Positions 43,961 through 56,041 of a stretch of DNA of 64,000 bases are shown here, piece after piece. Origin of the DNA: Promethearchaeota archaeon Loki_b32 (lineage in GTDB: Archaea; Asgardarchaeota; Lokiarchaeia; Sigyniarchaeales; SOKP01). A program made the translations under genes and the position numbers. How positions within the stretch are numbered: position 1 is the stretch's first letter; the number at the start of each line of letters is the position of its first letter. The stretch spans positions 46,316 through 110,315 of the forward strand of contig NJBH01000006.1 of assembly GCA_005223125.1 (NCBI GenBank), given 5' to 3'. Under the pieces are notes generated by a model. The model had not been told where the DNA came from. It worked only from the letters and a program-made list of their open reading frames with translations, and did not search any database.

Positions 43961-45106
43961 TTAAAACCCAACAATGTTTGTATTTCCAAAATCAATATCT
44001 GAATCTACAGCAGTTCGCACGTATGGAGATACAGGTCCATTTGCTAGAACCATTATCTTTATTTTGGAACCCATATCAGGTTTATTTTGAACTCCAAATT
44101 TTAGTTGAGCATCTTCTGGAATCCCATTTGAAATAGTAGAAATTACTTTATCAACTTTTGATAATGTTAATGTATGATCACCGGTGACCGAAACCAAACA
44201 TCTATTCACTTGACTTGGATCTGGCTTCAATAAAGGATTATTTAAGGCTAATTTTGCCTTTTCAATTAAATCTGACTCATCTCCTAAACATTCCGCTATA
44301 CCAATTAAACCAGAAGGATATTTACCAGTTGGATTTTCCAGTAGAGTCTTTTTCACATCTGCAAAATCTATATTGACTAAACCACAATTATTAATCAAAT
44401 TTACAACTTCACCTATATTTCTTATTAGAATTTCATCCATAATTTTAAATCCTGTTATCATAGGGATTTTTCCAACAATTCCGAGCAGATTATCATTTGG
44501 AATTGGAATTAGAAAATCAGAGTATTTAGCAAGGTTTTTTAACCCTAAACTTGCTCTAGCAGATCTTTGTTTACCTTCAGATTTAAACGGAAGTGAGCAA
44601 AAAGTTGCAACAATGGCATTATTCTTTTTTGCTTCTTCTGCAATAATGGGAGCTGCTCCAGTACCTGTACCCCCGCCTAAACCACATGTTAAAAAGATAA
44701 TATCTCCATTTAACGTTTGATTTAGCCTTTCACGGTCTTCTTCAGCAGCTTCTGCACCGACATGGGGGTCATTTCCTGAACCTAACCCATTACAAAGCTC
44801 TTTTCCAATTAAGATTTTATGTTTTGAATTTGAGTAATACAAATCATGGGCATCAGTATTTATTGTAATTGTTTCAGCATGATTGAGGCCCATATCCTCT
44901 AATCGTGAAACAGTGTTATTTCCTGCTCCTCCGACACCAACCACATATGTCTTAATTTTTAATACTTTCAATAAGTCAGCCAAATACTTATCATCGTCGC
45001 AATTTGGATTTGAATTGGGATTTTGGTTATGTTGAGCTATTTCATTAAACCTCTCTCTTACCGATGATCGCTTTTTGGCTAAATCTAAAATATCGTCAAC
45101 ACTCAT
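43961..45106 (-). CDS. ftsZ: cell-division GTPase FtsZ
   Basis: GVGGAGNNTV, tubulin signature GLGGGTGTGAAPIIAE, NTDAHDL (T7-like). Confidence 0.9.
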   Translation of the reverse strand: MSVDDILDLAKKRSSVRERFNEIAQHNQNPNSNPNCDDDKYLADLLKVLKIKTYVVGVGGAGNNTVSRLEDMGLNHAETITINTDAHDLYYSNSKHKILIGKELCNGLGSGNDPHVGAEAAEEDRERLNQTLNGDIIFLTCGLGGGTGTGAAPIIAEEAKKNNAIVATFCSLPFKSEGKQRSARASLGLKNLAKYSDFLIPIPNDNLLGIVGKIPMITGFKIMDEILIRNIGEVVNLINNCGLVNIDFADVKKTLLENPTGKYPSGLIGIAECLGDESDLIEKAKLALNNPLLKPDPSQVNRCLVSVTGDHTLTLSKVDKVISTISNGIPEDAQLKFGVQNKPDMGSKIKIMVLANGPVSPYVRTAVDSDIDFGNTNIVGF

Positions 45107-45350
45107 GATATATCATCTAAAAAATTAGGTTATTATAATACGACAACGATATCAGTATAATATAACTAAATAATATGAAGATAATATTGGCGAAATATTC
45201 AACATAACCAAATGTTTTTGTAATAAGTGTAAGTCGTTAATTTTATTATTATATCAATTTTTTCGTTTGAAATAAAGGACAAATCATTGCAGAATAAAAT
45301 TTATAAGTCTAAATTATCATGATTATCATGGCTTAAGGGTATAACAAAAT

Positions 45351-45590
45351 ATGGAAATTGATAATACAAAAACTAGCAGTAATGAGTCATTGGATGGCTC
45401 AAAACATGATGATTTAATTAAAGTTAGGGCTACAATTTCTTGTCCGAATGGCGATTACAAGAAGATATTTAGAAATCAATTTCTAAGAAAAGAAATAGAA
45501 ATGATGATTGTTACCTTCAAAGTGTTTGATTGGTTAACATGCAATAAATGTGGGGAACTCTTAAAGTTAGATTTGGAGTTTTCTATTTAA
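45351..45590 (+). CDS. hypothetical small protein
   Basis: ORF only; one CNKCG knuckle. Confidence 0.25.
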   Translation: MEIDNTKTSSNESLDGSKHDDLIKVRATISCPNGDYKKIFRNQFLRKEIEMMIVTFKVFDWLTCNKCGELLKLDLEFSI

Positions 45591-45670
45591 GATGTTAAAA
45601 ATTCTATATAACACATTTACCTTTACTTATTTTTGGTTATAAGAATAACTGTTAAGAATTTGATTTTTCC

Positions 45671-46981
45671 TTATATTTTAAGATTAATTTGACCATACGT
45701 ACCACCACCTCCAGGAGTATATTCAATTTCATTGTTTCTAAAAGCTCGTATAACTGAGGCAATAGTTGGATCAAATTTTTCAATTTTACTAATTGGGAGA
45801 TTGATTAAAATTTCAAATTCAGGTCCAAGTTCGCTTATTATTTTGTTATATTCATTTAAAACCGTTTTACTTGTTGAGCTTTTAATATTTTTGATGGAAC
45901 GGATAATATCAATTAATGGAACGGCGTTTATATAATTAGGTCTATGATCTGGATGAATAGGATTTTCCGATGTAGAAATAACATCTATTCTTTCACTTAC
46001 ACCTAACTTTACTTTAAAATTTTTACCAAATTCTTCCTTACATGCAGGACATACTATTTTATTATCTGCTACTTGCTTTATATATTGATTTTTAGCTGTT
46101 TGAGGATTACTCGAAAATATCGCAATGAAATTTTCAGTAATCGAATATTGGTTAAATACATTTTGGATGGTTTTTTTTGCTTTCTTAAAAATAATTCTCC
46201 TTCGGCACTTATTACAAAACATTTTGTAGTATTTTCCAAGTTTAGGATGTAAGCCTACATTTAATGATATTTTTCTCCCATCTTTTCGTTTAAGCGCTAA
46301 TAAGATTTCTTCAAAAGAGGGATTATCAATATCAAATCTATTAAATTCCCTGCCTAGAGAACGTGGGTTTTGAGAATGTGCATCACTATTACTTAAAAAA
46401 GTTACATCTTTTAGACATTTCAATCTGTCTGCGAGATGAGTATTGGCAGATAATCCTAATTCTATAAAGAATATATTTTTTGTAGCATCCTGGTAGCAAT
46501 CTTTAAGAGTTTTAAACTTATTCTGTCGGAATATTGCTTTAAAGGGTGTAAAAGCATGAGCGGGTCCAATTATAGCACCCTCATCGGAGATAATATCAAC
46601 TAATTCTGGTGGAGATAAATTAACCCTAGGACGCCCACCCCATTCACCTAAAATATTGGTTGAGTAGGGTACTAATTTCTTTTGAATATTTTTTACCATA
46701 TCAAAATCTTCAAAAAAAACAACTTCATGTACACTTTCTTGATCTTCAATTTCAGTTTGAAGAATAAAATAAATATCCTTATAACAATACGCTCCATCTT
46801 TATCTTTTTCTAATTTGTTCTCTAAGTATTTCAACCAATCTGGTTGCAATACATCTCCTGTACCTAAAATGTTTAAACCTTTTTTTTTACAGGTTTCTAA
46901 CATCGTGTCCAAATTCAACGTTTTTGATACTGCAATTGAATGAGGGGAGTGTATATGTAGGTCGGCATTGAAGATATTCAT
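45671..46981 (-). CDS. PHP-domain endonuclease Q-like protein
   Basis: ADLHIHSPHS PHP start, SDAHS, internal Zn finger CNKCRRR...CPACKEE; size ~430 aa as for archaeal EndoQ. Confidence 0.7.
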   Translation of the reverse strand: MNIFNADLHIHSPHSIAVSKTLNLDTMLETCKKKGLNILGTGDVLQPDWLKYLENKLEKDKDGAYCYKDIYFILQTEIEDQESVHEVVFFEDFDMVKNIQKKLVPYSTNILGEWGGRPRVNLSPPELVDIISDEGAIIGPAHAFTPFKAIFRQNKFKTLKDCYQDATKNIFFIELGLSANTHLADRLKCLKDVTFLSNSDAHSQNPRSLGREFNRFDIDNPSFEEILLALKRKDGRKISLNVGLHPKLGKYYKMFCNKCRRRIIFKKAKKTIQNVFNQYSITENFIAIFSSNPQTAKNQYIKQVADNKIVCPACKEEFGKNFKVKLGVSERIDVISTSENPIHPDHRPNYINAVPLIDIIRSIKNIKSSTSKTVLNEYNKIISELGPEFEILINLPISKIEKFDPTIASVIRAFRNNEIEYTPGGGGTYGQINLKI

Positions 46982-47053
46982 TTTTTTCGAAATTAAATAG
47001 TAATTTTATACATTACATTAATTTCAATTTAATTAAGATTCTTTTATTTTTCC

Positions 47054-48100
47054 CTAAATAATGATCAATTTATCTTGAATTGGATCATTTAGTAAAATCC
47101 TATAATATTCCATATCATCTTTAAACCTTGCTTTTTCTAATTTACCTTCAACTATTACCTTTTCACTTTTTTTTACATGCTCACAAAAACGACCTCTAAA
47201 TGAATTAATTTCATTTATGTCTCTCATATCTATATCTTTTGCATTAAAATTGCTTTTAAGAATTTTTATGGGATTTATTTTATATGAACAAGGAGTAAAA
47301 ATTGAATCTTTTGAATCTAAAATATCGGCTTTGAGTCTAATTCTTCCAATATTTTTATATTGATAATCATAAAAATTGCCATTCCAATCTTTAGGACTTT
47401 TAATATATCTTATAAAAAAATCATGGTTCATATGCTTGCCTTGATGTAACTTGCGTTGTTCACTCCTAAGAAAATCATTAAAAGGAATATCAGATCCACC
47501 AACTCTCCACTCATAATGAGATTTATACTCATCTAGGTTATACTTCCGACAGTCATTTAATTCATTAAATATTTTTACTAATTTCTCTTGAAATTTTAAA
47601 CTTGTTTCTGTACCGTATATTATTATATCAATATCAGATTTTTCAGTATTTAATCCTACCATTGTTGATCCTGTTATACCTATTGATTTTTCAGGAAGAT
47701 TGCCTTCAGTTATAAATAAATTACATAAATTTTTAGAACATGTTTCTATGTATGATAAATTATCTTTATCTAATAGGGTCTTAAAGAAACTTCGTGGAGT
47801 ATAAATTTTTTTAATTTCTTGTATTTTGACTCCTTGGACTTCTAAGTCAATTTCTTTAGAATAAAAAAGGTAATCGGGATAATTCTCTCTCAAAAAGGAA
47901 TATCGTTCATATAATTTATAGACTTTTTTAAAATGGATGCCTTTTTTTATCCTTTCTCCATCTGGATGGGGATAAAATCGTAAAAAGCAGATGATATAAT
48001 CATTTGGATGTAGTAACCCTTTTACATCAAAAAACAAATTATCATTTTTTGTTTCTATATAATCTCCTTCAATTCCTTCAATATTTTTCATGAATTTCAC
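47054..48100 (-). CDS. Pol-beta-superfamily nucleotidyltransferase (archaeal COG1665-like)
   Basis: GITGSTMVGLNTEKSDIDIIIYG (GS...DxD) in mid-protein. Confidence 0.55.
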   Translation of the reverse strand: MKFMKNIEGIEGDYIETKNDNLFFDVKGLLHPNDYIICFLRFYPHPDGERIKKGIHFKKVYKLYERYSFLRENYPDYLFYSKEIDLEVQGVKIQEIKKIYTPRSFFKTLLDKDNLSYIETCSKNLCNLFITEGNLPEKSIGITGSTMVGLNTEKSDIDIIIYGTETSLKFQEKLVKIFNELNDCRKYNLDEYKSHYEWRVGGSDIPFNDFLRSEQRKLHQGKHMNHDFFIRYIKSPKDWNGNFYDYQYKNIGRIRLKADILDSKDSIFTPCSYKINPIKILKSNFNAKDIDMRDINEINSFRGRFCEHVKKSEKVIVEGKLEKARFKDDMEYYRILLNDPIQDKLIII

Positions 48101-48111
48101 AATATTAGTAA

Positions 48112-49266
48112 TTAATACTTTGAAGGCGTCTTAGTTTTAATTTTTGAGGGAGTCTTCGATTTAATTTTTCTTAAATCTCTTTCAAATTGTCTTTTTTCAT
48201 TTAGAAATCGTTGCTTATCTTTTTCTAATTTATTTCTTTCACGTTTAATAATATTTTTTTCGCTTTCTAAGTTTGATTTTCGTTTTTCTAATTGTCTATA
48301 TTCATTATTTAATCGTTTAAACTTTTCCTCTAAATTGGGAATTTTCCGGTTTAAGGACTGATACTTATTTTCTGCAGCTGGAACTTTTCTTTGTAATTCT
48401 TTTAATCTTGCCTCTTGTTGGCGTCTTCTTTTCTCCAACTCATTTGCATTTCTATCAGCTTTTTCTCTGGTCTTTTTTAGATCAACTTTTTTCTTGTTAA
48501 TCTCACGAGCTTTTAGATCTAAGTCTTGTTTTTTATATCGAGTTTTTTCTCTTTCTTCTTTTAATTTTTTCTTTTCATCAGAAATACGATTTTTTTCATC
48601 AATAATCTCTCTCCTTAAGCTATTGATTTCCCTATTTAAACGATCTCTTTCTTTATTTAGATCTTTAATTTCATTTCTTAAATCCATTAATTTATCTTCC
48701 AAATCATTAGTAGTTCTGTTCAAGGCATTTTCTCTTCTTTCCATACCAGGAAGTTTCGTTTTAATTTCCTTTAAGCGATCTTCTGTTCTTGCCTTTTCTT
48801 TCTCTAAATATTTTTTTTCATTTCCAATTTCTTCTCTAAGTTTATCTAATTTATCTTGAAATCTTTCCAATTCAGCATTTTTTTGATCTAATTCATCATT
48901 CTTTCTTCTGATTTTATCTTTAAATTGCCGTTCTTTTACATTTAACTCGTTTTTTTGTTGTTCTATTTCATTTTTCGCCACTTTTAATTCATTTCGCAGA
49001 TTATCTCGTTGTTCAAGAAGATTTTTAACTTCAAATTCTCTATCCTTTCTTTTTCTTTCAAGATCCTCAATATTATACTTATAAGCCTCAATTTGATTAA
49101 TTATTTTTTCCCATTCACTCTTCTCTTTATCCAGTTTGATTCTTTCTTTTTTTATTTTCTTAAGTAATTTTTTTTCTGGAATTGTTTCAAGTTCTTCCTC
49201 AGGTGTTTTTTCCCGAATTTCATATTTAGGAATTGGTTTGTCATCCATGTTATTTCTACAATTCAC
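48112..49266 (-). CDS. K/E/R-rich coiled-coil protein (archaeal coiled-coil protein type)
   Basis: Almost entirely heptad-like charged sequence, with an internal duplicated module RLKE(I/L)..K(L/V)P..E....LNR; the first ATG is at 49248 (track start is a GTG at 49266). Confidence 0.5.
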   Translation of the reverse strand: MNCRNNMDDKPIPKYEIREKTPEEELETIPEKKLLKKIKKERIKLDKEKSEWEKIINQIEAYKYNIEDLERKRKDREFEVKNLLEQRDNLRNELKVAKNEIEQQKNELNVKERQFKDKIRRKNDELDQKNAELERFQDKLDKLREEIGNEKKYLEKEKARTEDRLKEIKTKLPGMERRENALNRTTNDLEDKLMDLRNEIKDLNKERDRLNREINSLRREIIDEKNRISDEKKKLKEEREKTRYKKQDLDLKAREINKKKVDLKKTREKADRNANELEKRRRQQEARLKELQRKVPAAENKYQSLNRKIPNLEEKFKRLNNEYRQLEKRKSNLESEKNIIKRERNKLEKDKQRFLNEKRQFERDLRKIKSKTPSKIKTKTPSKY

Positions 49267-49454: not shown

Positions 49455-49877
49455 ATGAGTTTTGATGAAGAGGAAGAGTTTGACGAGGAATTCGACGAAG
49501 AAGATCTCGATGAAGAGTTAGATGAGCAGGATGAAGAAGAATTTGAGGATGAATTAGAAGAACCTTCTATAGTAGCATCTACTGAAGAGCCTGAATCTAA
49601 AACTCCAGCAACTAAAGTAATAGCTGAAGGGAAAAAAATTTCAGTCTATTTTATGTCAACTATAGGTCCCGGTGAAAAAAAACAAAAACTAGTTATAAAT
49701 ACAGGATATAGTGTTGGAGATATTAAGGAAACAGTAGCAAATTTATTTGGATTAGATCCTGCTGATTTTCATTTATCATCAAGTGGAATTACAATGGATG
49801 AGAGCTCATCTTTAAGAGATTATAATATAAGTGATGGAGACGATATACTTCTAATTCCCGCTAGTACAGCGGGCTAA
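49455..49877 (+). CDS. ubiquitin-like beta-grasp protein with acidic N-terminal extension, C-terminus ...IPASTAG-stop
   Basis: C-terminal ~80 aa collinear with 51741..52076; terminal Gly directly precedes the stop; D/E-rich first ~45 aa. Confidence 0.75.
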   Translation: MSFDEEEEFDEEFDEEDLDEELDEQDEEEFEDELEEPSIVASTEEPESKTPATKVIAEGKKISVYFMSTIGPGEKKQKLVINTGYSVGDIKETVANLFGLDPADFHLSSSGITMDESSSLRDYNISDGDDILLIPASTAG

Positions 49878-49927
49878 ATTTCTAGAAAAAGTAAAATTTT
49901 CAAAGCAAGGTTTTATTTTCTTCACTT

Positions 49928-50716
49928 TTATTTTTTTTTTAAGGGAATCAGCGCAATTTCATCATCATCATCAATTTTATAATCTTTAATTTGTGAGTTT
50001 TCATTTAATAATATCCCCCCAGAAGAGAGAAGAAAGTCTTCTAAATTATAATCAAATAATCTCCCAATTCTCTCTTTAATTGGCTTTATTATCTCAGTTG
50101 TATCGAGTATAATTATCTTTGTTTTCTCGCCTGGTTCAAGTAAAGATCTTACATAAACACGGATCCGGTCTTCCATTTCAATCAGTTTCATAGGTTGTGT
50201 ATAAAATACCTCCTCATCAGTGTTATCTCTGGTCTTCAACATATTTTCGATTAACGTTTTTCTCTCATTTTCATCGAAATATAACATTTCCCGGATAAAC
50301 AAGATTTTGTCCACTTTTGATAAATCTAATAGGTTTATTTTATCTAATTCTTCTTGACTAAAAACTGAAAAGATATATTTATCGATTATTGGTATATCCT
50401 TATAGGACTCGCTGGATTCAGTATAATCTTCTATTAAAGGTATGGCATCAATGTAATCTTCAATGATATCAACTTGTTTCCGTTTAATTAATTTTGAATC
50501 AGGTAAGATTTTTTTTTTCTTTATTTTTTCATCCCAACTACCTTTAGACTGTATAACTGTATATACTGTACTAGTAGATAAGATCGCAACGCTACCTACT
50601 GTTAGAATGAGAAATAAGAAGGAATTTTCTATACTGAATAAGAAAAATAGGAAATAGACCAAAATACAAACAGTATAAAGAGCGATGACACTTAAAATTC
50701 TATATTTATTTCTCAT
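49928..50716 (-). CDS. membrane-anchored protein with C-terminal ubiquitin-like domain (no terminal Gly)
   Basis: Two N-terminal TM helices. The C-terminal segment IKERIGRLFDYNLEDFLLSSGGILLNENSQIKDYKIDDDDEIALIP aligns with the free Ubls (LF..DF.LSSGGI..EN...DY..D.D.I.LIP) but ends LKKK. Confidence 0.6.
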   Translation of the reverse strand: MRNKYRILSVIALYTVCILVYFLFFLFSIENSFLFLILTVGSVAILSTSTVYTVIQSKGSWDEKIKKKKILPDSKLIKRKQVDIIEDYIDAIPLIEDYTESSESYKDIPIIDKYIFSVFSQEELDKINLLDLSKVDKILFIREMLYFDENERKTLIENMLKTRDNTDEEVFYTQPMKLIEMEDRIRVYVRSLLEPGEKTKIIILDTTEIIKPIKERIGRLFDYNLEDFLLSSGGILLNENSQIKDYKIDDDDEIALIPLKKK

Positions 50717-50795
50717 AACTTTTTAATTAGATTATTTTCTGAATTTAAAATATATATTTTTTCTTATAAAGATCTATGGAATAATTTTGGAGTTT

Positions 50796-51473
50796 TTAAT
50801 GTGACACACCCTGAATTGATTTTCTAACTTTAGAATAGTTTTTTGTATCTAATTGGAATACAATACGATTTTTAATTTTTTCAATTTTTATTAATTTCAA
50901 ATCTGTTAAAATGTCTATGTATTTTTTGATGGTACTATGATTCTTTTTCAAGCTGTTTGCAATTTCTGTAATTTTTAATGTTTTATTTTCTTTTTTCATA
51001 AAGTTAATTATTTTTTGGACAATTTTCTTTTTTAAATAATAATACAACTCGTCAAGTTCTGGATTTGAATCAAATTTAAAGAAGATTCTATGATTGTTAA
51101 TTTGTTTTGATCTTACAAATAGGAATTTTTCTAAACATGATAAATGCCATAAAGCTTGATTACTTCCCATATTTAGAGCTCTCATTATCTCATTAATATT
51201 AGAAGGATTCTTTTTTATATAGTTATAAATCTCATTTCGTTTTGGATGTTCAATAATATTATTTTTCATTAATCTTGTTCCTGGGATAATAACACGTTTT
51301 TTTATTAAATCTTTTAAAATTAATTCAATTCTATTCTCATTTATATTTGGATTATATCTAACTCTATTATTTATATACGATATGATTTCTTTGATTGAAA
51401 AGAACGTTTTTTTTGTTAAATACTCTTTTACTAATTCAAGAACGACAGATTTTGCATTATCCAGAGAACTCAT
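50796..51473 (-). CDS. tandem winged-helix protein (ArsR-like wHTH x2)
   Basis: KRNEIYNYIKKNPSNINEIMRALNMGSNQALWHLSCLEKFLFV and LKITEIANSLKKNHSTIKKYIDILTDLKLI. Confidence 0.55.
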   Translation of the reverse strand: MSSLDNAKSVVLELVKEYLTKKTFFSIKEIISYINNRVRYNPNINENRIELILKDLIKKRVIIPGTRLMKNNIIEHPKRNEIYNYIKKNPSNINEIMRALNMGSNQALWHLSCLEKFLFVRSKQINNHRIFFKFDSNPELDELYYYLKKKIVQKIINFMKKENKTLKITEIANSLKKNHSTIKKYIDILTDLKLIKIEKIKNRIVFQLDTKNYSKVRKSIQGVSH

Positions 51474-51740
51474 GAGCCTATACTTGTATTATGTTGATTT
51501 TTCTTGTTAAGTAATTATATATTCTCTCTAAAACAACATTTTTTGATTAATATATATTAATAGGCATTCATACAATTTATAATATAATTTCTAAAGAATC
51601 CTAATTTGCTCCTTCTCTTATTTTTGATAAAACCATTAAAAACTTCAAAATCATTCCAAAGGGTTTTATTATATCTTTTTAATGCGATTTTATTAAGTTT
51701 ACAAAAATAAAAAAATAAAAAAAAAAAGGATGTGTAATAA

Positions 51741-52076
51741 ATGAGTTTTGAAAATGAATTTGATGAGGATTTAGTTGGGAAGGAGCCTGTAAAATCTAAA
51801 ACTCCCGCATCTAAAACCCCTTCAACAGGAAAGAAATTGACTTTGTATTTCATGTCTACTATTGGACCCGGTGAAAAGAAGGAAAAATTAACAGTAAATA
51901 ACAATAATCGTGTGAGTGATATTAAACAAACACTTGGAAATTTATTTGGACTTAATCCAAACGATTTTCATTTATCATCTGGAGGTATTACAATGGATGA
52001 AAATAGCTACTTAAACGATTATAGTGTAAGTGATGGCGATGATATTCTTTTGATCCCTGCGAGTACTGCGGGGTAA
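51741..52076 (+). CDS. ubiquitin-like beta-grasp protein, C-terminus ...IPASTAG-stop
   Basis: Paralog of 49455..49877; first gene of the Ubl-E1-E2-JAMM-RING string. Confidence 0.8.
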   Translation: MSFENEFDEDLVGKEPVKSKTPASKTPSTGKKLTLYFMSTIGPGEKKEKLTVNNNNRVSDIKQTLGNLFGLNPNDFHLSSGGITMDENSYLNDYSVSDGDDILLIPASTAG

Positions 52077-52108: not shown

Positions 52109-52140
52109 AAGGGCGCTAAGCCCTTTAATTTTTTTTATTT
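52109..52140 (+). terminator. 6-bp GC-cored hairpin (AAGGGC-gctaa-GCCCTT) followed by a T-rich tract
   Basis: Read directly from the sequence, 33 nt after the Ubl stop and ahead of the E1 gene. Confidence 0.4.
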
Positions 52141-52155
52141 TTTTAATAATTATAA

Positions 52156-53391
52156 TTGGTGATTATATTGGGAAAGAGTTCAGATTTTTTTAGTAGAGGC
52201 CTGACATCGGAAGAGAGAAATTTATACGACCGCCAATTTAGGCTTGAGGGATGGTCTCAGAAACTAGTAAAAAACACTCGAGTTTTGATAGTTGGAGTTG
52301 GGGGATTAGGTTGCGAAATCGCAAAAAATCTGGCAATGTTAGGAATAGGACATTTAGATTTAGTAGATTTAGATATTATTGAACATTCAAACTTAAATCG
52401 CCAAATTTTATTTACGGGTGCTAAATTGGGGGAACCTAAAGCAATCGTGGCGGCAAAAAAATTAACTGAAATAAATCCAAATATTAATGTAAATGGTTAT
52501 CATACTTCCTTAGAGCGCCTAGATCCTGCAATATATAGAGCTGCTGACGTTATTATTGGAGGTCTTGACTCCATGAACGCTCGATTGAATTTAAACGCTC
52601 AATGTGTAAGATTTAGGAAACCACTAGTAGATGGAGGTGTGTCAGGTTATCATGGTCATGTCTACACGATTTTTCCATTCAAAAATGCATGTTATGAATG
52701 TAACCCGCTCCCTATAGCTGAAAGTGATGAGATGGCTGCATGTACTGTAGTAGGAATACCAAGAAAGAGGATTCACTGCATTTTTAAAGGAGATATGGCC
52801 TTTAAAGAAAAATTCGATAGGGATCCTAATCCAAAAAGTGTTGTTGATATTAAATTCATTCAAAAAGTTGCTAATGAATTAGTAAATAAACATAATTTTC
52901 TCCCGGAATATACTCAAGATGATATTGTAAAGATTATCGATAGACATGATCCAGGAATAATTACCATAAATGCTGTCATTTCAGCATTACAATCTCATGA
53001 AGCTATAAAAATCCTTCATTGGAAAAAAGGACATATAGGTTTAGGTGAACCAATAAAAACCTATGTTATTTTCAATGCAATGACAATGATGTTTTATCAT
53101 ATTGAAAAAAAAAGAAATCCAGAATGTTCCCAATGTGGAAAAAAAGTTCGAAGATTTGTCGTGAAATTAAGAGCACGTTCTCCATGTATTAATATAATCA
53201 AAGTATTAGAAAAACATGGTTTTAAGTTAGATCCTGATCTCGAACCCGTAATAACATTATTGGATTTTAATGATATTAAGATGATTGATCTAGAACAGAA
53301 TCCAATTGAAAATGGTTTAAGAAATTACGAATTTATGACTGCTGCAGGGTTTAAAGATGGAGAAATTTTTGTAACCTTAAAATTAAAATAA
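52156..53391 (+). CDS. ubiquitin-activating E1-like enzyme (ThiF/MoeB/Uba family); non-AUG start
   Basis: YDRQ..., VGVGGLGCEIAKNLAMLGIG, DLDIIEHSNLNRQ, Zn pairs CYEC / CSQC, candidate catalytic Cys in MAACTVVG. No in-frame ATG precedes the nucleotide loop (TTG 52156, GTG 52159 or TTG 52168). Confidence 0.85.
   Translation: MVIILGKSSDFFSRGLTSEERNLYDRQFRLEGWSQKLVKNTRVLIVGVGGLGCEIAKNLAMLGIGHLDLVDLDIIEHSNLNRQILFTGAKLGEPKAIVAAKKLTEINPNINVNGYHTSLERLDPAIYRAADVIIGGLDSMNARLNLNAQCVRFRKPLVDGGVSGYHGHVYTIFPFKNACYECNPLPIAESDEMAACTVVGIPRKRIHCIFKGDMAFKEKFDRDPNPKSVVDIKFIQKVANELVNKHNFLPEYTQDDIVKIIDRHDPGIITINAVISALQSHEAIKILHWKKGHIGLGEPIKTYVIFNAMTMMFYHIEKKRNPECSQCGKKVRRFVVKLRARSPCINIIKVLEKHGFKLDPDLEPVITLLDFNDIKMIDLEQNPIENGLRNYEFMTAAGFKDGEIFVTLKLK
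52158..52163 (+). promoter_or_regulatory. GGTGAT Shine-Dalgarno-like element at the E1 start region
   Basis: ataattGGTGATtataTTG; it overlaps the first two candidate starts and lies 4 nt before the TTG at 52168. Confidence 0.35.
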
Positions 53392-53473: not shown

Positions 53474-54001
53474 ATGAGTATAAGAAGTAGTAGAATCTCG
53501 CAAGATTTTGCGGGATTAAAAAAATTGTATAAACAAGGAACTATTATTCAGTTAAAACCATTTAATCCAAAAAGAAAGAGTATTGATCATTTAGCAATTA
53601 CTATTAAAGGACCTAAAGGTACTGTTTATGCAGGTGGTCTTTTTAAATTAGAAATGAAATTCCCTGCTCAGTATCCTAGACAACCACCTTTTGTAAGACT
53701 GCATACTCCAATCTGGCATCCAAATTTTTGGGCAAAACCAAGTGAATATAAAGGACAAAGAAATATTTGTTTAGCATTAGTAGATCCCTCCCTAACTGGT
53801 AAAAGAGGAGGGTGGAGTCCATCAAAAACAGCGGTTACCGTTGTTCAAGCAATAATTGCTATGTTAAACACACGAGGTAAATATGTAAATCCTACCGATG
53901 TTTTTAATAAAAAAGCTGCGATAGAGATGATGAAAAATCAGAAGTTTTTTGAGAAAAAAGTGAAGAATCTCGTGAAAAAGTATGCAAATAAAAAATGGTG
54001 A
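53474..54001 (+). CDS. ubiquitin-conjugating E2 (UBC fold)
   Basis: IKGPKGTVYAGGLFKLEMKFPAQYPRQPPFVRLHTPIWHPNF (HPN), catalytic Cys in GQRNICLAL, WSP, conserved C-terminal helices. Confidence 0.9.
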   Translation: MSIRSSRISQDFAGLKKLYKQGTIIQLKPFNPKRKSIDHLAITIKGPKGTVYAGGLFKLEMKFPAQYPRQPPFVRLHTPIWHPNFWAKPSEYKGQRNICLALVDPSLTGKRGGWSPSKTAVTVVQAIIAMLNTRGKYVNPTDVFNKKAAIEMMKNQKFFEKKVKNLVKKYANKKW

Positions 54002-54002
54002 T
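53997..54002 (+). promoter_or_regulatory. GGTGAT Shine-Dalgarno-like element embedded in the E2 stop region, 7 nt before the JAMM ATG
   Basis: aaaaaTGGTGAttactttaATG; the TGA of E2 is inside the element. Confidence 0.5.
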
Positions 54003-54009
54003 TACTTTA

Positions 54010-54822
54010 ATGGAGAATAAAGAATTAGCCAATAGTTCAATCAAAGACGTAATTAAAAAGAAGATAAAAGAAAAAATAAAACAAGAATTACTAGATGAAA
54101 TATGTGAAGAACTTAAATTAGAGGAAGAAGAATTAACAGAAGAGATTTGTTCAATGCTTACTAAAAAAACCTCTGCCAAACCAATAATAAAACTTTCTAA
54201 GATACCTACCGTCAAAATAGAAGAGAAAAAGCATGTTGAAATACAAATAGAAGAGGAAATACAAAAAGAAGTTTATATTTCAGTAAAAAGTATACTTAAA
54301 ATAGCAAGTCATGCGCTTAAATATGCAAATTCTAAGATTCGAAGAGAGAATTGGGTGGAAGTTATTGGGCTTCTAGCAGGAAAATTAGATAAAAACGAAA
54401 TACTCCATATTGAAGATGCTTACCCAATGGGGCATGGAACGGCTGTATATGCCGAAATTAAAGATTATAAGAATTATGTGAGGGCATTTAAAGATATTAA
54501 AAAACAGAGATTATTTATATGTGGATGGTATCATAGTCATCCTTCATATGGTCTTTTTATGAGTAATGAAGATATGGGCACTCAAGCAAGATATCAAACA
54601 CTTTGGGATAAAGCAGTTGCTCTTGTTGTTGATCCATACCTAATTGACGGTACTTCACCAGGCTTTGAGATTTATAGCGCTAATTTGAAATCAAAAACAT
54701 GGTATCCATTATTATACGGGATTAAAGGGTCATTAGATGTAAGAATGTTACCTGAAATATTGAAATTTATGCATCCCCTCATTGAAGGAAAGCCAGTATA
54801 TCTTGAATATGATGAAGATTAA
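54010..54822 (+). CDS. JAB1/MPN/Mov34 (JAMM) metalloprotease, Rpn11/CSN5-like deubiquitinase with charged N-terminal extension
   Basis: EVIGLLAG (Glu), GWYHSHPSYGLFMSNED (HxHx7Sx2D). ATG 54010 is preferred because of the SD; the track start 53995 is in frame and also possible. Confidence 0.85.
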   Translation: MENKELANSSIKDVIKKKIKEKIKQELLDEICEELKLEEEELTEEICSMLTKKTSAKPIIKLSKIPTVKIEEKKHVEIQIEEEIQKEVYISVKSILKIASHALKYANSKIRRENWVEVIGLLAGKLDKNEILHIEDAYPMGHGTAVYAEIKDYKNYVRAFKDIKKQRLFICGWYHSHPSYGLFMSNEDMGTQARYQTLWDKAVALVVDPYLIDGTSPGFEIYSANLKSKTWYPLLYGIKGSLDVRMLPEILKFMHPLIEGKPVYLEYDED

Positions 54823-54850: not shown

Positions 54851-56041
54851 ATGGCAAAATTTAAATCGGTAGTAATTTTTCTAGCGATATTTTGCTTAAT
54901 TGGTATAATCCATGGTGCTCTTCTAAATTCAATTAATGTTTTTGTAACTTGGTTGTTAATTGGAATTTGGTTAATTTATTCTTTCAAAGTTCTAAAAAAT
55001 ATCAAACAATATCGTGAATTTAATTCTCCTCATAATACTGCTTTTTTTACCATTGGTCCTGTTTTAATGGGAATTTTTTATTCAGTGTGGAGTAATTTCA
55101 CAGGTTTATTAGGAGAAAATCTTTTAGAAAGTACAGATTTATATTTAAGTTGGTGGAGTATACTATTTGGATTTCCCTATATATTATATGGTTCGATTTC
55201 TTTATACCGTTGTTTTAAAAAGTATAATGTAATACATTTTAGAAGGAAATCAATAAAAGCACGCACATTTGGTTTTATTTTAGGAATCTCCATTCTCCTG
55301 TTTATAATTATATACTGGATAAGTTTTTATTCAATTATAGACTTTTATGAATCTTTAATAACACCTCTCCATTTTTTAATAGATCTCAATCTATTAATAT
55401 TACTTATCAGTACTATACTACTATTAATAGTCCCTGGCTTGTTTGGTGCTCAAACTCCATTACCTCAACTAACTAGAGATTACATAGCAAGACGTACAAG
55501 CAGATTAAACAATTTAACATCACCCACCCCTAATCGACAAAGACAAACTGTTCGTACTACAACTAGATCATCTCCAACACCTTCAACAAGAACAGTTGCT
55601 CGCACAACAAGATCAGTTTCTCGTTCTGCAAGATCAACGCCTACAACAAATAGATATTCTACAAGCTCTAGAGAAAAAAAAACTACTCAAACTGTAGGCA
55701 GAAGAGCAACAGGACCAGTGCGAAGAAAAAAAACTGTTACAAAAATAAGCAATTTCAATTTATATAAACCAAAAGCAGCACGTCTTTCAACAGAGGATTT
55801 TAAATGTATTTTTTGTTTTAAGTTACCAGAATATCCTAAAGATAATGGTAGAGGAATAATATTGTGTCCAAAATGTAAATACCCCGCTCATGCTGACGAA
55901 TTTAAAGATTGGCTTCAAAGTTCTAACCTATGTTCTCGGTGTAATACACCAATTCCCTCAAGCTTTAGAAGAAATCCTAAAACCATAAGTGTAAAAAATT
56001 ATATAATCGTCATTAAGCATTTTGTAAGTAATAGGAGATGA
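54851..56041 (+). CDS. polytopic membrane protein with R/S/T/P-rich linker and C-terminal RING-like zinc finger (candidate E3)
   Basis: ~6 TM helices; ~80-aa low-complexity basic linker; CIFC-x16-CPKC-x4-H-x13-CSRC. Confidence 0.65.
   Translation: MAKFKSVVIFLAIFCLIGIIHGALLNSINVFVTWLLIGIWLIYSFKVLKNIKQYREFNSPHNTAFFTIGPVLMGIFYSVWSNFTGLLGENLLESTDLYLSWWSILFGFPYILYGSISLYRCFKKYNVIHFRRKSIKARTFGFILGISILLFIIIYWISFYSIIDFYESLITPLHFLIDLNLLILLISTILLLIVPGLFGAQTPLPQLTRDYIARRTSRLNNLTSPTPNRQRQTVRTTTRSSPTPSTRTVARTTRSVSRSARSTPTTNRYSTSSREKKTTQTVGRRATGPVRRKKTVTKISNFNLYKPKAARLSTEDFKCIFCFKLPEYPKDNGRGIILCPKCKYPAHADEFKDWLQSSNLCSRCNTPIPSSFRRNPKTISVKNYIIVIKHFVSNRR

What the first reader, a model, noticed from the sequence alone, without database searches (positions are those of the whole stretch)
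49455..52076. Two paralogous free Ubls end in Ala-Gly and carry N-terminal extensions
Both free Ubls terminate ...DDILLIPASTAG-stop, so they are made in mature form and need no C-terminal processing. The tail is Ala-Gly rather than the Gly-Gly of ubiquitin, NEDD8, SUMO, Urm1 and SAMPs. This resembles the single-Gly tails of UFM1 (Val-Gly) and ATG8/ATG12. Unlike 76-aa ubiquitin, both have N-terminal extensions. In 49455..49877 this is a ~45-aa almost purely Asp/Glu tract (FDEEEEFDEEFDEEDLDEELDEQDEEEFEDELEE). In 51741..52076 it is a short Lys/Thr/Pro linker. If these are conjugated, the extension travels with the modifier, so the acidic tail could itself be the signal.
Basis: seen in the sequence. 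Interest (0 to 1): 0.65.

Follow-up and report, generated by a model that had tools for sequence, protein, structure and literature searches.

The report
Lokiarchaeal Ala-Gly-tailed ubiquitin-like modifier pair
Two neighbouring genes of an Asgard (Lokiarchaeia) archaeon encode ubiquitin-like tags that end in Ala-Gly instead of ubiquitin's Gly-Gly and carry conserved disordered N-terminal extensions; they sit beside their own E1, E2, protease and probable membrane E3, so they look like an undescribed variant of the archaeal ubiquitin system.

Summary
Ubl1 (49455-49877, 140 aa) and Ubl2 (51741-52076, 111 aa) are 64% identical beta-grasp proteins that both end ...GDDILLIPASTAG-stop. The Ala-Gly tail is a family hallmark, not a local mutation: 272 of 276 relatives have AG at that position, down to 38% identity. 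About 80% end exactly at AG. The rest carry 1-12 extra residues or are tandem poly-Ubls, so processing persists in the family. The genes lie in a cluster conserved in more than 50 species: Ubl1 | membrane-Ubl, wHTH | Ubl2-E1-E2-JAMM-membrane zinc-finger protein. The E1 and E2 are canonical types (best match SAE2/UBA1/UBA3; HPN plus Cys), not UBA5/UFC1, so the UFM1 resemblance is confined to the tail. The N-terminal extensions are disordered but conserved and under purifying selection. Each has an acidic-aromatic N-terminus, expanded to net charge about -18 in Ubl1, and a [ST]KTP motif. In these loci that motif occurs otherwise almost only at the C-terminus of the adjacent coiled-coil protein. 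Most likely these are two flavours of one conjugatable modifier, distinct from the Gly-Gly 'Loki ubiquitin' used in published work. Conjugation itself is inferred, not shown. I rate it a new variant of a known kind, of moderate to high interest.

The parts
49455..49877 (+). Ubl1: 140-aa free ubiquitin-like protein. Residues 1-64 form a disordered, strongly acidic extension containing ESKTP. Residues 65-140 form the beta-grasp core, ending PASTAG-stop.
   Evidence: ORF; Pfam ubiquitin; AF2 gives a beta-grasp over 61-135 at pLDDT about 90 and an extension mostly near or below 50 (10-residue block means 41-59); best Foldseek hit is Caldiarchaeum ubiquitin; 120 orthologues share the acidic extension.
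49596..49607 (+). S-K-T-P motif in the Ubl1 extension (residues 48-51).
   Evidence: K49 and P51 are at least 90% conserved in alignment A1.
51741..52076 (+). Ubl2: 111-aa paralogue. It has a short acidic-aromatic N-terminus (MSFENEFDEDL), two SKTP motifs and the same core and tail.
   Evidence: 833 homologues were found; of the best 120, 108 end AG-stop.
51795..51821 (+). Two tandem [ST]KTP motifs in Ubl2 (KSKTPASKTPS).
52109..52135 (+). Terminator-like GC hairpin followed by a T-run, between Ubl2 and E1. It may act as an attenuator that gives more modifier than enzymes.
   Evidence: The number of such sites in the region is not above chance, so only its position is suggestive.
52156..53391 (+). 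E1-like activating enzyme: ThiF adenylation domain, CxxC...CxxC zinc motif and a catalytic-Cys segment (AACTVVGIP).
   Evidence: Pfam ThiF at 1e-61. Best PDB matches are SAE2/UBA2 (1.8e-40), UBA1 and UBA3, with the Cys aligned to UBA2's CTIRNTP; UBA5 scores only 1e-16.
53474..54001 (+). E2 conjugating enzyme with an HPN motif and catalytic Cys (NICLAL).
   Evidence: Pfam UQ_con at 3.6e-26. PDB matches are Ubc15, UBE2R and UBC9, with the Cys aligned. It is the orthologue of Lokiarchaeum GC14_75 A0A0F8VF99, listed in the source data of PMC9192718.
53995..54822 (+). JAMM/MPN+ metalloprotease with an intact E...HSHPx7SxxD motif. It overlaps the E2 gene by 7 nt.
   Evidence: Pfam JAB at 1.5e-15; motif read from the sequence.
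54851..56041 (+). Membrane protein with six predicted TM helices, a Ser/Thr/Arg-rich linker and a C-terminal zinc finger (CxxC-x14-CxxC-x4-H..E..W..CxxC). It is a candidate RING-like E3.
   Evidence: Invariant ligands in 22 orthologues. AF2 confidence is low, though it shows a beta-beta-alpha element. Foldseek finds only non-significant RING/U-box hits. No Pfam hit.
49928..50716 (-). Membrane-anchored Ubl-domain protein whose C-terminus lacks the Gly (ends ...IALIPLKKK), so it cannot be conjugated.
   Evidence: Present in 70 of 77 related loci. Orthologues are P0292, P0301 and P0307.
50796..51473 (-). Tandem winged-helix (ArsR/HTH_5-like) protein, divergent from Ubl2. Probably the cluster's regulator.
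   Evidence: Present in 67 of 77 loci.
48112..49266 (-). 384-aa coiled-coil protein that ends in the repeated motif IKSKTPSKIKTKTPSKY (about 48115-48168).
   Evidence: 68 of 70 orthologues end with 1-3 copies of IK[ST]KTPS.Y.

Best explanation
Ubl1 and Ubl2 are two paralogous modifiers of a dedicated ubiquitin-like conjugation system found in Lokiarchaeia and close relatives.

Proposed mechanism (inferred):
1. The single E1 adenylates the terminal Gly of the shared PASTAG tail and forms a thioester on its catalytic Cys.
2. The Ubl passes to the HPN/Cys E2.
3. A membrane-anchored RING-like protein directs it to targets.
4. The JAMM protease removes conjugates. In relatives that carry propeptides or tandem repeats, it also cuts after Ala-Gly to mature the Ubl.

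The Ala-Gly tail is the fixed ancestral state of this family. It replaces LRLRGG with a small, uncharged PASTAG of the same length. It probably keeps the pathway separate from the Gly-Gly ubiquitin that Lokiarchaeia also encode.

The two paralogues have nearly identical cores and identical tails, so the same enzymes should handle both. They differ in the disordered N-terminal extension that stays attached after conjugation: short and near-neutral in Ubl2, and an expanded acidic-aromatic tract in Ubl1. That gives two flavours of tag.

Both extensions contain a Lys-bearing [ST]KTP motif shared with the C-terminus of the neighbouring coiled-coil protein. It is most likely an acceptor or docking motif of the system.

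Shown here: the sequences, fold, conservation, synteny and catalytic motifs. Inferred: conjugation, shared enzymes, E3 identity, and the roles of the extension and the motif.
For: - Fold: beta-grasp at pLDDT about 90. The best structural match is the experimentally validated Caldiarchaeum ubiquitin. hhalign against ubiquitin gives probability 89%. All 62 diverse family members hit Pfam ubiquitin.
- Tail: A139 and G140 are invariant in 62 sequences down to 38% identity. AG occurs in 272 of 276 relatives. 227 of 285 end at AG, 55 have short propeptides and 3 are internal or tandem. The triple Ubl P0241 was seen on two independent contigs.
- Selection: the last 13 codons of the two paralogues differ only synonymously.
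- Enzymes: E1 with an aligned catalytic Cys, E2 with HPN and Cys, and an intact JAMM motif.
- Synteny: Ubl2-E1-E2-JAMM-memZnF and the whole 14-gene neighbourhood recur in 50-73 of 77 species-representative loci. Divergent lineages keep Ubl(s)-E1-E2-JAMM with AG tails (L052 Sifarchaeum, L077, L078).
- Extension: pN/pS is 0.37-0.44 against 0.18-0.20 in the core. The acidic-aromatic start is present in 234 of 236 close homologues and K[TVI]P in 233 of 236. Mean net charge is -2 in the short form and -18 in the long form.
- Motif: of 266 [ST]KTP occurrences in 1.17 Mb of loci, all but one lie in Ubl1, Ubl2 or the coiled-coil protein's C-terminus.
Against: - There is no biochemical or proteomic evidence of conjugation for this family, and no usable RNA data.
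- All well-studied canonical E1s act on Gly-Gly tails (my own knowledge), so activation of Ala-Gly is an extrapolation.
- The E3 assignment rests on a ligand pattern only. The AF2 model is poor and Foldseek hits are not significant.
- The homologues are mostly 60-90% identical Lokiarchaeia, so the counts partly reflect shared ancestry.
- Synteny among close relatives does not prove functional linkage with the coiled-coil protein.
- Some long 'fusion' relatives may be gene-calling artefacts.
Confidence: 0.7

Rival explanations
1. They are the Asgard counterparts of UFM1: a single-Gly modifier homologous to eukaryotic UFM1. They may be the 'Ufm1 homologues' reported in Asgard archaea by structural modelling.
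For: Tail architecture is similar: beta5-Pro-x3-small-Gly, IIPRDRVG in UFM1 against LIPASTAG here. hhalign aligns the two end to end. PMC12962969 reports Asgard Ufm1 homologues with partial-length hits, multiple hit regions and long disordered termini. These features resemble this family's fusions, tandem forms and extensions.
Against: hhalign probability against UFM1 is 0.8%, compared with 89% for ubiquitin. None of 62 members hit Pfam Ufm1, while all 62 hit ubiquitin. UFM1 is absent from the top 60 PDB profile hits and the top 50 Foldseek hits. The E1 matches SAE2/UBA1/UBA3 at 1e-40 to 1e-36 but UBA5 at 1e-16. The E2 has the HPN motif that UFC1 lacks (the UFC1 point is my own knowledge). The protease is a JAMM, not a UFSP-type Cys protease.
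Confidence: 0.08
2. They are non-conjugated Ubl-domain adaptor proteins that bind partners through the beta-grasp and the extension. The AG terminus has no chemical role.
For: The cluster also encodes a Ubl that clearly cannot be conjugated, the membrane-Ubl ending LIPLKKK. Some fusion relatives have lost AG (P0296, P0302, P0350).
Against: The C-terminal Ala-Gly is invariant and lies exactly at, or within 12 residues of, the end. Tandem head-to-tail forms exist. The link to E1-E2-JAMM is tight and conserved. A Ubl always placed at the extreme C-terminus is the signature of a modifier.
Confidence: 0.1
3. They are sulfur-carrier proteins of the ThiS/MoaD/Urm1/SAMP type, activated by a MoeB-like E1.
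For: The E1 also matches MoeB/ThiF models. Two of 62 family members give weak ThiS hits.
Against: All NCBIfam MoeB/ThiF scores fall far below their cut-offs. The E1 has a eukaryote-type catalytic-Cys segment and no rhodanese domain. An E2, a JAMM and a RING-like protein are in the same operon. Sulfur carriers end in Gly-Gly (my own knowledge). No thiamine, molybdopterin or tRNA-thiolation genes are nearby.
Confidence: 0.03

Closest known systems
Caldiarchaeum subterraneum ubiquitin operon (Ub, E1-like, E2-like, small RING finger protein, Rpn11/JAMM; PMC5654768, PMC6043591)
   Same: It is a compact archaeal operon of a beta-grasp modifier with a canonical-type E1, a UBC E2, a zinc-finger E3 and a JAMM protease. 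Its ubiquitin is the best structural match to Ubl1.
   Different: - Its modifier ends TVGG and is made with a 9-residue propeptide that Rpn11 must remove. Here the tail is AG and mostly already mature.
- It has no N-terminal extension.
- It has one modifier, not two paralogues.
- Its E3 is small and soluble, whereas here it is a 6-TM membrane protein.
- It has no membrane-Ubl or KTP-tailed coiled-coil partner.
Gly-Gly-type Asgard ubiquitins (Lokiarch_37670, HeimAB125_14240, Helarchaeia pro-ubiquitin; PMC9192718, bioRxiv 10.1101/2023.07.25.550441)
   Same: They are Asgard beta-grasp modifiers associated with E1/E2/RING genes. The Helarchaeial one is conjugated in vitro.
   Different: They end in GG: Lokiarch_37670 ...ATQAGG-ISIIH, Heimdall ...TKGG, Hel GG-SPKN. 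They lack N-terminal extensions. They are only distantly related to this family (hhalign probability 56%). No copy lies in the window or the 77 loci. The AG family therefore looks like a second, separate pathway in Lokiarchaeia.
UFM1 (and ATG8/ATG12) single-glycine modifiers
   Same: The mature C-terminus is X-Gly rather than Gly-Gly. UFM1 shares the beta5-Pro-x4-Gly spacing.
   Different: They use non-canonical E1s (UBA5, ATG7), E2s without HPN (UFC1, ATG3/ATG10) and Cys proteases (my own knowledge). Here the E1, E2 and protease are ubiquitin/SUMO/NEDD8-like. There is no sequence-profile support for homology beyond the common fold.
SUMO
   Same: It has a flexible N-terminal extension that stays on the conjugate and, in SUMO2/3, carries the chain-forming Lys in a short consensus motif (my own knowledge). 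The E1's best PDB match is SAE2. 33 of 62 members give weak Rad60-SLD hits.
   Different: SUMO ends in GG and is matured by Cys proteases. The Rad60-SLD hits are weak; the one scored here fell below the gathering score. Any role of the KTP lysine as an acceptor is hypothetical.
Haloarchaeal SAMPs / Urm1
   Same: They are archaeal Ubls activated by an E1-like enzyme and removed by a JAMM desampylase. The JAMM here gives a weak desampylase hit.
   Different: SAMPs end in GG, need no E2 or E3, and double as sulfur carriers (my own knowledge). Here a full E2 and a putative E3 are present.

Membership tests
Ubiquitin superfamily (beta-grasp Ubl, Pfam PF00240) | Beta-grasp fold and a match to the ubiquitin profile | tested here: met
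   Pfam scores of 25.8 and 26.4 bits against a cut-off of 25.4. All 62 members hit it. AF2 gives a beta-grasp and Foldseek matches Caldiarchaeum Ub, NEDD8, ISG15 and SUMO at E 1e-6 to 7e-9. hhalign probability against ubiquitin is 89%.
Ubiquitin-type conjugatable modifier | C-terminal Gly-Gly exposed at, or a few residues before, the C-terminus | tested here: not met
   The tail is Ala-Gly. A139 is invariant, with 272 AG against 1 GG among relatives. The terminal Gly itself is invariant and terminal.
Ubiquitin-type conjugation operon (Caldiarchaeum/Asgard type) | E1 with an adenylation domain and a catalytic Cys | tested here: met
   ThiF at 1e-61. The Cys in AACTVVGIP aligns with UBA2's CTIRNTP.
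Ubiquitin-type conjugation operon (Caldiarchaeum/Asgard type) | UBC-fold E2 with HPN and an active-site Cys | tested here: met
   UQ_con at 3.6e-26. WHPNF and NICLAL align with Ubc15.
Ubiquitin-type conjugation operon (Caldiarchaeum/Asgard type) | RING-type E3 | tested here: inconclusive
   Cys/His ligands and a Trp are invariant and the spacing is RING-H2-like. There is no Pfam hit, PDB profile hits are at E of 0.016 or worse, AF2 pLDDT is 53, and Foldseek RING/U-box hits are at E > 2.
Ubiquitin-type conjugation operon (Caldiarchaeum/Asgard type) | JAMM/MPN+ protease with an intact metal site | tested here: met
   JAB at 1.5e-15. E...HSHPSYGLFMSNED was read in the sequence.
Ubiquitin-type conjugation operon (Caldiarchaeum/Asgard type) | ATP-dependent thioester and isopeptide formation | not testable with these tools
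   This needs biochemistry or proteomics.
UFM1 system | Modifier matches the Ufm1 family profile | tested here: not met
   None of 62 members hit Pfam Ufm1. hhalign probability is 0.8%. UFM1 is not among the top PDB or Foldseek hits.
UFM1 system | UBA5-type E1, UFC1-type E2 (no HPN) and a UFSP Cys protease | tested here: not met
   The E1 is much closer to SAE2/UBA1/UBA3 than to UBA5. The E2 has HPN. The protease is a JAMM.
UFM1 system | Mature tail is X-Gly with a single Gly | tested here: met
   Ala-Gly here against Val-Gly in UFM1, with the same Pro-x4-Gly spacing.
SUMO | Gly-Gly tail, a match to the SUMO/Rad60-SLD profile and a Ulp/SENP protease | tested here: not met
   The tail is AG. 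Rad60-SLD hits are weak in 33 of 62 members, and the one scored here fell below the gathering score (18 against 23.8 bits). No Ulp-type protease is in the cluster.
ThiS/MoaD/Urm1/SAMP sulfur carriers | GG tail, a MoeB/Uba4-type E1 (often with a rhodanese domain) and no E2 | tested here: not met
   The tail is AG. E1 scores fall far below the MoeB/ThiF/UbaA cut-offs. An E2 is present.

The most novel reading that the evidence does not exclude
Lokiarchaeia run a second Ubl pathway, separate from Gly-Gly ubiquitin, that is directed by a short consensus motif as SUMO conjugation is. In this reading the E2 (or E3) recognises the Lys in I-K-[ST]-K-T-P. That motif sits on a dedicated coiled-coil substrate encoded next to FtsZ and on the modifiers' own N-terminal extensions, where it would support chain building. 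The modifier is a 'cargo-carrying' tag whose N-terminal part is the functional payload delivered to targets. That payload can be an acidic tract or, in relatives, a HerA ATPase, CDC48_N-VWA, Roadblock or zinc-ribbon domain. The Ala-Gly tail would act as the specificity gate that keeps the two pathways apart.
Probability: 0.2. Interest if true: 0.85.

Novelty: new variant of a known kind. Interest (0 to 1): 0.62.

Why it matters
[quoted passage not shown] How one ancestral ubiquitin system split into parallel modifiers (ubiquitin, NEDD8, SUMO and others) is an open question. This cluster shows a prokaryote-grade system that has already duplicated its modifier, changed the normally invariant penultimate Gly and added a functional N-terminal extension, all with canonical-type E1 and E2 enzymes.
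- **A test of the Gly-Gly rule.** It offers a natural test of whether a canonical E1 needs Gly-Gly.
- **A consequence for proteomics.** Standard di-Gly remnant proteomics cannot see these conjugates. Trypsin would leave a 19-residue remnant for Ubl1 (+1930.92 Da) and a 49-residue remnant for Ubl2. Existing proteomes of cultured Lokiarchaeia would therefore have missed them.
- **A point for published work.** Published Loki 'ubiquitin' experiments used a different, Gly-Gly protein, Lokiarch_37670.

Tried and rejected
- **UFM1 homology:** tested with hhalign, Pfam on 62 members, a PDB profile search and Foldseek. Not supported.
- **Identity with the published Asgard 'Ufm1 homologues':** could not be settled. 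No accessions or supplements are held for either version of that work.
- **Sulfur-carrier reading:** rejected.
- **Structure of the putative E3:** The full-length AF2 model was poor, at pLDDT 53. Its Foldseek hits were not significant. The PDB profile search gave only weak IFT144/RNF24-type zinc-finger hits.
- **KTP-like motif in the JAMM N-terminus:** it occurs in one subclade only, so it was dropped.
- **Expression evidence:** the runs that hold the sequence are marine-sediment and cold-seep runs, mostly typed as DNA. The two metatranscriptomes listed hold none of it.
- **Viral copies:** none found.
- **NCBIfam:** no model names either Ubl.
- **Literature:** full-text search for the strings LLIPASTAG, STIGPGEK and IPASTAG found no paper. 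PMC4444528 (Spang 2015) is not held.
- **Promoter scan:** the sigma-70 scan is not meaningful for an archaeon, and only the terminator-like site was noted.
Full report
**1. Observation**

The window is about 30% G+C. Its closest relatives are metagenome-assembled genomes of Promethearchaeota/Lokiarchaeia from marine sediments and cold seeps.

- They are 64% identical.
- Both pass Pfam's ubiquitin threshold narrowly.
- Both end GCG-GGN-TAA, which reads Ala-Gly-stop.
- The final 13 codons encode the same peptide, GDDILLIPASTAG. Nine of the 13 codons differ and every difference is synonymous. The tail is therefore held by selection in both copies.

hhalign places the core in gapless register with ubiquitin, residues 75-134 against ubiquitin 11-70. 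G140 then corresponds to G76, A139 to G75, A136 to R72 and P135 to L71. The core is ubiquitin-sized, and PASTAG replaces LRLRGG at equal length. Of ubiquitin's lysines only K11 and K27 have equivalents, and I44 is an almost invariant Ser.

**2. The Ala-Gly tail is a family character**

- Of the best 120 homologues of Ubl2, 108 end AG-stop and 11 have AG followed by 1-3 residues.
- Of 120 homologues of Ubl1, 100 end [TIV]AG-stop.
- In an alignment of 62 members down to 38% identity, A139 and G140 are invariant.
- With a relaxed pattern the count is 272 AG, 1 GG, 1 AR and 2 others.
- Among the 50%-identity cluster representatives, 19 end at AG, 24 carry 1-12 extra residues and 3 have the motif internally.
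- The internal cases include a triple head-to-tail Ubl (P0241...STAG|SEY......STAG|ADD......STAGVL) and a double one (P0242). P0241 occurs on two independent contigs.

'No processing' is true of these two genes but not of the family, which explains the JAMM protease in the operon.

**3. Fold and family**

AF2 on the alignment gives a beta-grasp over residues 61-135 at pLDDT about 90. Residues 1-55 are mostly near or below 50, with 10-residue block means of 41-59.

The best Foldseek hits are the Caldiarchaeum subterraneum ubiquitin structures (E 7e-9), then NEDD8, ISG15, SUMO1, Hub1 and ubiquitin.

| Comparison of the family profile | Result |
|---|---|
| vs ubiquitin (hhalign) | probability 89%, E 2e-6 |
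| vs human UFM1 (sequence from my memory) | probability 0.8% |
| vs Lokiarch_37670 | probability 56% |

All 62 members hit Pfam ubiquitin, 33 hit Rad60-SLD weakly and none hit Ufm1.

**4. Context**

The surrounding genes are as follows.

| Coordinates | Strand | Gene |
|---|---|---|
| 43961-45106 | - | FtsZ |
| 45671-46981 | - | PHP-domain protein |
| 47054-48100 | - | nucleotidyltransferase |
| 48112-49266 | - | coiled-coil protein |
| 49455-49877 | + | Ubl1 |
| 49928-50716 | - | membrane protein with a C-terminal Ubl domain lacking the Gly |
| 50796-51473 | - | tandem wHTH |
| 51741-52076 | + | Ubl2 |
| 52156-53391 | + | E1 |
| 53474-54001 | + | E2 |
| 53995-54822 | + | JAMM |
| 54851-56041 | + | membrane zinc-finger protein |

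- **E1.** Its best matches are SAE2/UBA2 (1.8e-40), UBA1 and UBA3. Its AACTVVGIP...IHCI segment aligns with the catalytic-Cys segment of UBA2. UBA5 scores 1e-16.
- **E2.** It has WHPNF and the active-site Cys aligned with Ubc15. It is the orthologue of a Lokiarchaeum GC14_75 E2 listed in the source data of PMC9192718.
- **JAMM.** It has the full E...HxHx7SxxD site.
- **Last gene.** It has six predicted helices, a Ser/Thr/Arg-rich linker and an invariant CxxC-x14-CxxC-x4-H-x2-E-x3-W...CxxC domain. The spacing and the Trp fit a RING-H2-like finger, but every test of that was inconclusive.

**5. Conservation of the cluster**

A scan of one genome per GTDB species found 276 stretches that encode relatives. 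In the 77 loci kept, the whole arrangement recurs.

| Gene | Loci with it (of 77) |
|---|---|
| Ubl1 | 73 |
| coiled-coil protein | 71 |
| membrane-Ubl | 70 |
| wHTH | 67 |
| Ubl2 | 65 |
| E1 | 61 |
| E2 | 55 |
| JAMM | 53 |
| zinc-finger protein | 50 |

Most of the missing genes are at contig ends.

More divergent loci have a single short-type Ubl directly before E1-E2-JAMM-zinc finger (L052 'Sifarchaeum', L070, L077), and all have PASTAG tails. A still more distant operon (L078) has two tandem Ubls...HSTAG-stop and ...VSTAG-LL, before ThiF, UQ_con and JAB. The short form thus looks ancestral and the acidic Ubl1 looks like a later duplicate.

**6. The N-terminal extensions**

Close homologues share a two-part architecture.
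- **Acidic-aromatic start** (M[SG]F[DE]..FDE[DE]L): present in 116 of 117 short forms and 118 of 119 long forms.
- **K[TVI]P motif** 8-13 residues before strand beta-1: present in 117 of 117 short forms and 116 of 119 long forms.

The long form multiplies the hydrophobic-acidic unit (6.6 units against 2.1). That takes the mean net charge from -2 to -18. The Lys and Pro of the motif are at least 90% conserved across the diverse alignment.

pN/pS in the extension is 0.37-0.44, against 0.18-0.20 in the core. These are uncorrected values and the sets are partly mixed. They still show that the extension is translated and constrained, though less than the core.

The cores of Ubl1 and Ubl2 differ at 22 of 81 positions and the last 14 residues are identical. 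The main difference between the paralogues is the extension.

**7. An unexpected link**

- In the 64-kb window, [ST]KTP occurs in long ORFs only in Ubl1 (once), Ubl2 (twice) and the extreme C-terminus of the coiled-coil protein (twice: KIKSKTPSKIKTKTPSKY-stop), plus one short ORF.
- Across 1.17 Mb of related loci, all but one of 266 occurrences lie in these three genes.
- 68 of 70 coiled-coil orthologues end in 1-3 copies of IK[ST]KTPS.Y.
- Long fusion relatives keep the motif between the N-terminal domain and the Ubl, for example P0249 ...IKTKMPSEIKTKTPSKI....

The motif is therefore a specific short linear motif of this system. I infer that it is an acceptor or docking site. This has not been tested.

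**8. Family-wide architecture**

The Ubl with its AG end is always at the extreme C-terminus. Upstream there can be:
- an acidic tract;
- a HerA-like ATPase (P0254);
- CDC48_N plus VWA (P0270, P0275);
- a weak Roadblock domain (P0245);
- a zinc-ribbon/coiled-coil module (P0246 and others).

One zinc-ribbon fusion lies next to FtsZ in L010. Some of the long forms may be gene-calling artefacts.

**9. Comparison with the literature**

- The Caldiarchaeum operon is the closest characterised system. Its ubiquitin ends TVGG plus a 9-residue propeptide that Rpn11 removes before E1 activation (PMC5654768).
- A Helarchaeial pro-ubiquitin ends GG-SPKN and is conjugated in vitro (bioRxiv 10.1101/2023.07.25.550441).
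- The 'Lokiarchaeota ubiquitin' used in PMC9192718 is Lokiarch_37670, which ends ...ATQAGG-ISIIH. It is a different, distantly related protein and is absent from the window and the loci.
- That paper notes a discrete 'Ub region' in Loki genomes. Neither its text nor its supplements mention glycine tails.
- No held paper contains the family's signature strings.
- PMC12962969 reports Asgard 'Ufm1 homologues'. I could not determine whether they overlap this family. My tests do not support UFM1 membership.

**10. Verdict**

It is best read as a new variant of the archaeal ubiquitin-type conjugation system, with three distinguishing features:
- a fixed Ala-Gly tail on a canonical-type E1/E2 cascade;
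- two paralogous modifiers that differ in a conserved N-terminal extension;
- a system-specific KTP motif shared with a neighbouring protein.

Conjugation, the E3 identity and the roles of the extension and motif are inferences that need biochemistry.

Noticed in passing
window 48112-49266 (-), tail about 48115-48168: The coiled-coil protein next to Ubl1 ends in IKSKTPSKIKTKTPSKY. The same [ST]KTP motif occurs in both Ubl extensions. It is conserved in 68 of 70 orthologues with 1-3 copies, and is almost exclusive to these three genes across 1.17 Mb of related loci.
   Followed up: yes
window 49928-50716 (-): A third, membrane-anchored Ubl-domain protein has a C-terminus (IALIPLKKK) that lacks the Gly, so it cannot be conjugated. 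It is conserved in 70 of 77 loci. It may be a receptor, anchor or decoy for the system.
   Followed up: partly
window 52109-52135 (+): A GC hairpin (AAGGGCGCTAAGCCCTT) followed by a T-run lies between the Ubl2 stop and the E1 start. It could terminate or attenuate transcription so that the modifier is made in excess of the enzymes. Conservation was not checked.
   Followed up: no
window 53995-54001: The E2 and JAMM genes overlap by 7 nt, which suggests translational coupling.
   Followed up: no
proteins P0241, P0242 (loci L080, L081): These are tandem poly-Ubl proteins with three and two copies. Each copy has its own acidic/KTP extension and the copies are joined directly after ...STAG. They are an archaeal analogue of polyubiquitin precursors. 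P0241 was seen on two independent contigs.
   Followed up: partly
proteins P0254, P0270, P0275, P0245, P0246-P0256; L010 4176-4559: These proteins have an AG-tailed Ubl at the C-terminus of a HerA-like ATPase, CDC48_N+VWA, a weak Roadblock-like domain or a zinc-ribbon/coiled-coil module. In L010 one zinc-ribbon fusion lies beside FtsZ. Some may be gene-calling artefacts.
   Followed up: partly
supplement of PMC9192718 (Lokiarch_37670): The 'Loki ubiquitin' used in published ESCRT work is a different Gly-Gly pro-ubiquitin (...ATQAGG-ISIIH). Lokiarchaeia therefore probably have two separate Ubl types. Which E1 serves the Gly-Gly one is unknown.
   Followed up: partly
loci L055, L074 and several JBHL... 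loci: Contigs that carry this Lokiarchaeial cluster are labelled Nanopelagicaceae bacterium or Bacillota bacterium. Others are labelled Thor-, Odin-, Hod- or Hermodarchaeota despite near-identical synteny and FtsZ identity as high as about 90% in some. This probably reflects mis-binning or mislabelling.
   Followed up: no
window 43961-48100 (-): FtsZ, a PHP-domain protein (TIGR00375-like) and a Pol-beta-type nucleotidyltransferase are syntenic with the Ubl cluster in 52-66 of 77 loci. This could mean a functional link to cell division or just conserved gene order among relatives.
   Followed up: no
window 1677-4064 (+): A 795-aa fusion combines a pyridine-nucleotide-disulfide oxidoreductase, two rhodanese domains and TusA, so it is a sulfur-trafficking enzyme. 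It is 45 kb from the cluster and there is no sign that it is linked.
   Followed up: no
Ubl1 and Ubl2 C-terminal regions: No Lys or Arg lies near the tail. Trypsin would leave 19-residue (+1930.92 Da) and 49-residue remnants on targets, so standard di-Gly proteomics would miss any conjugates.
   Followed up: yes
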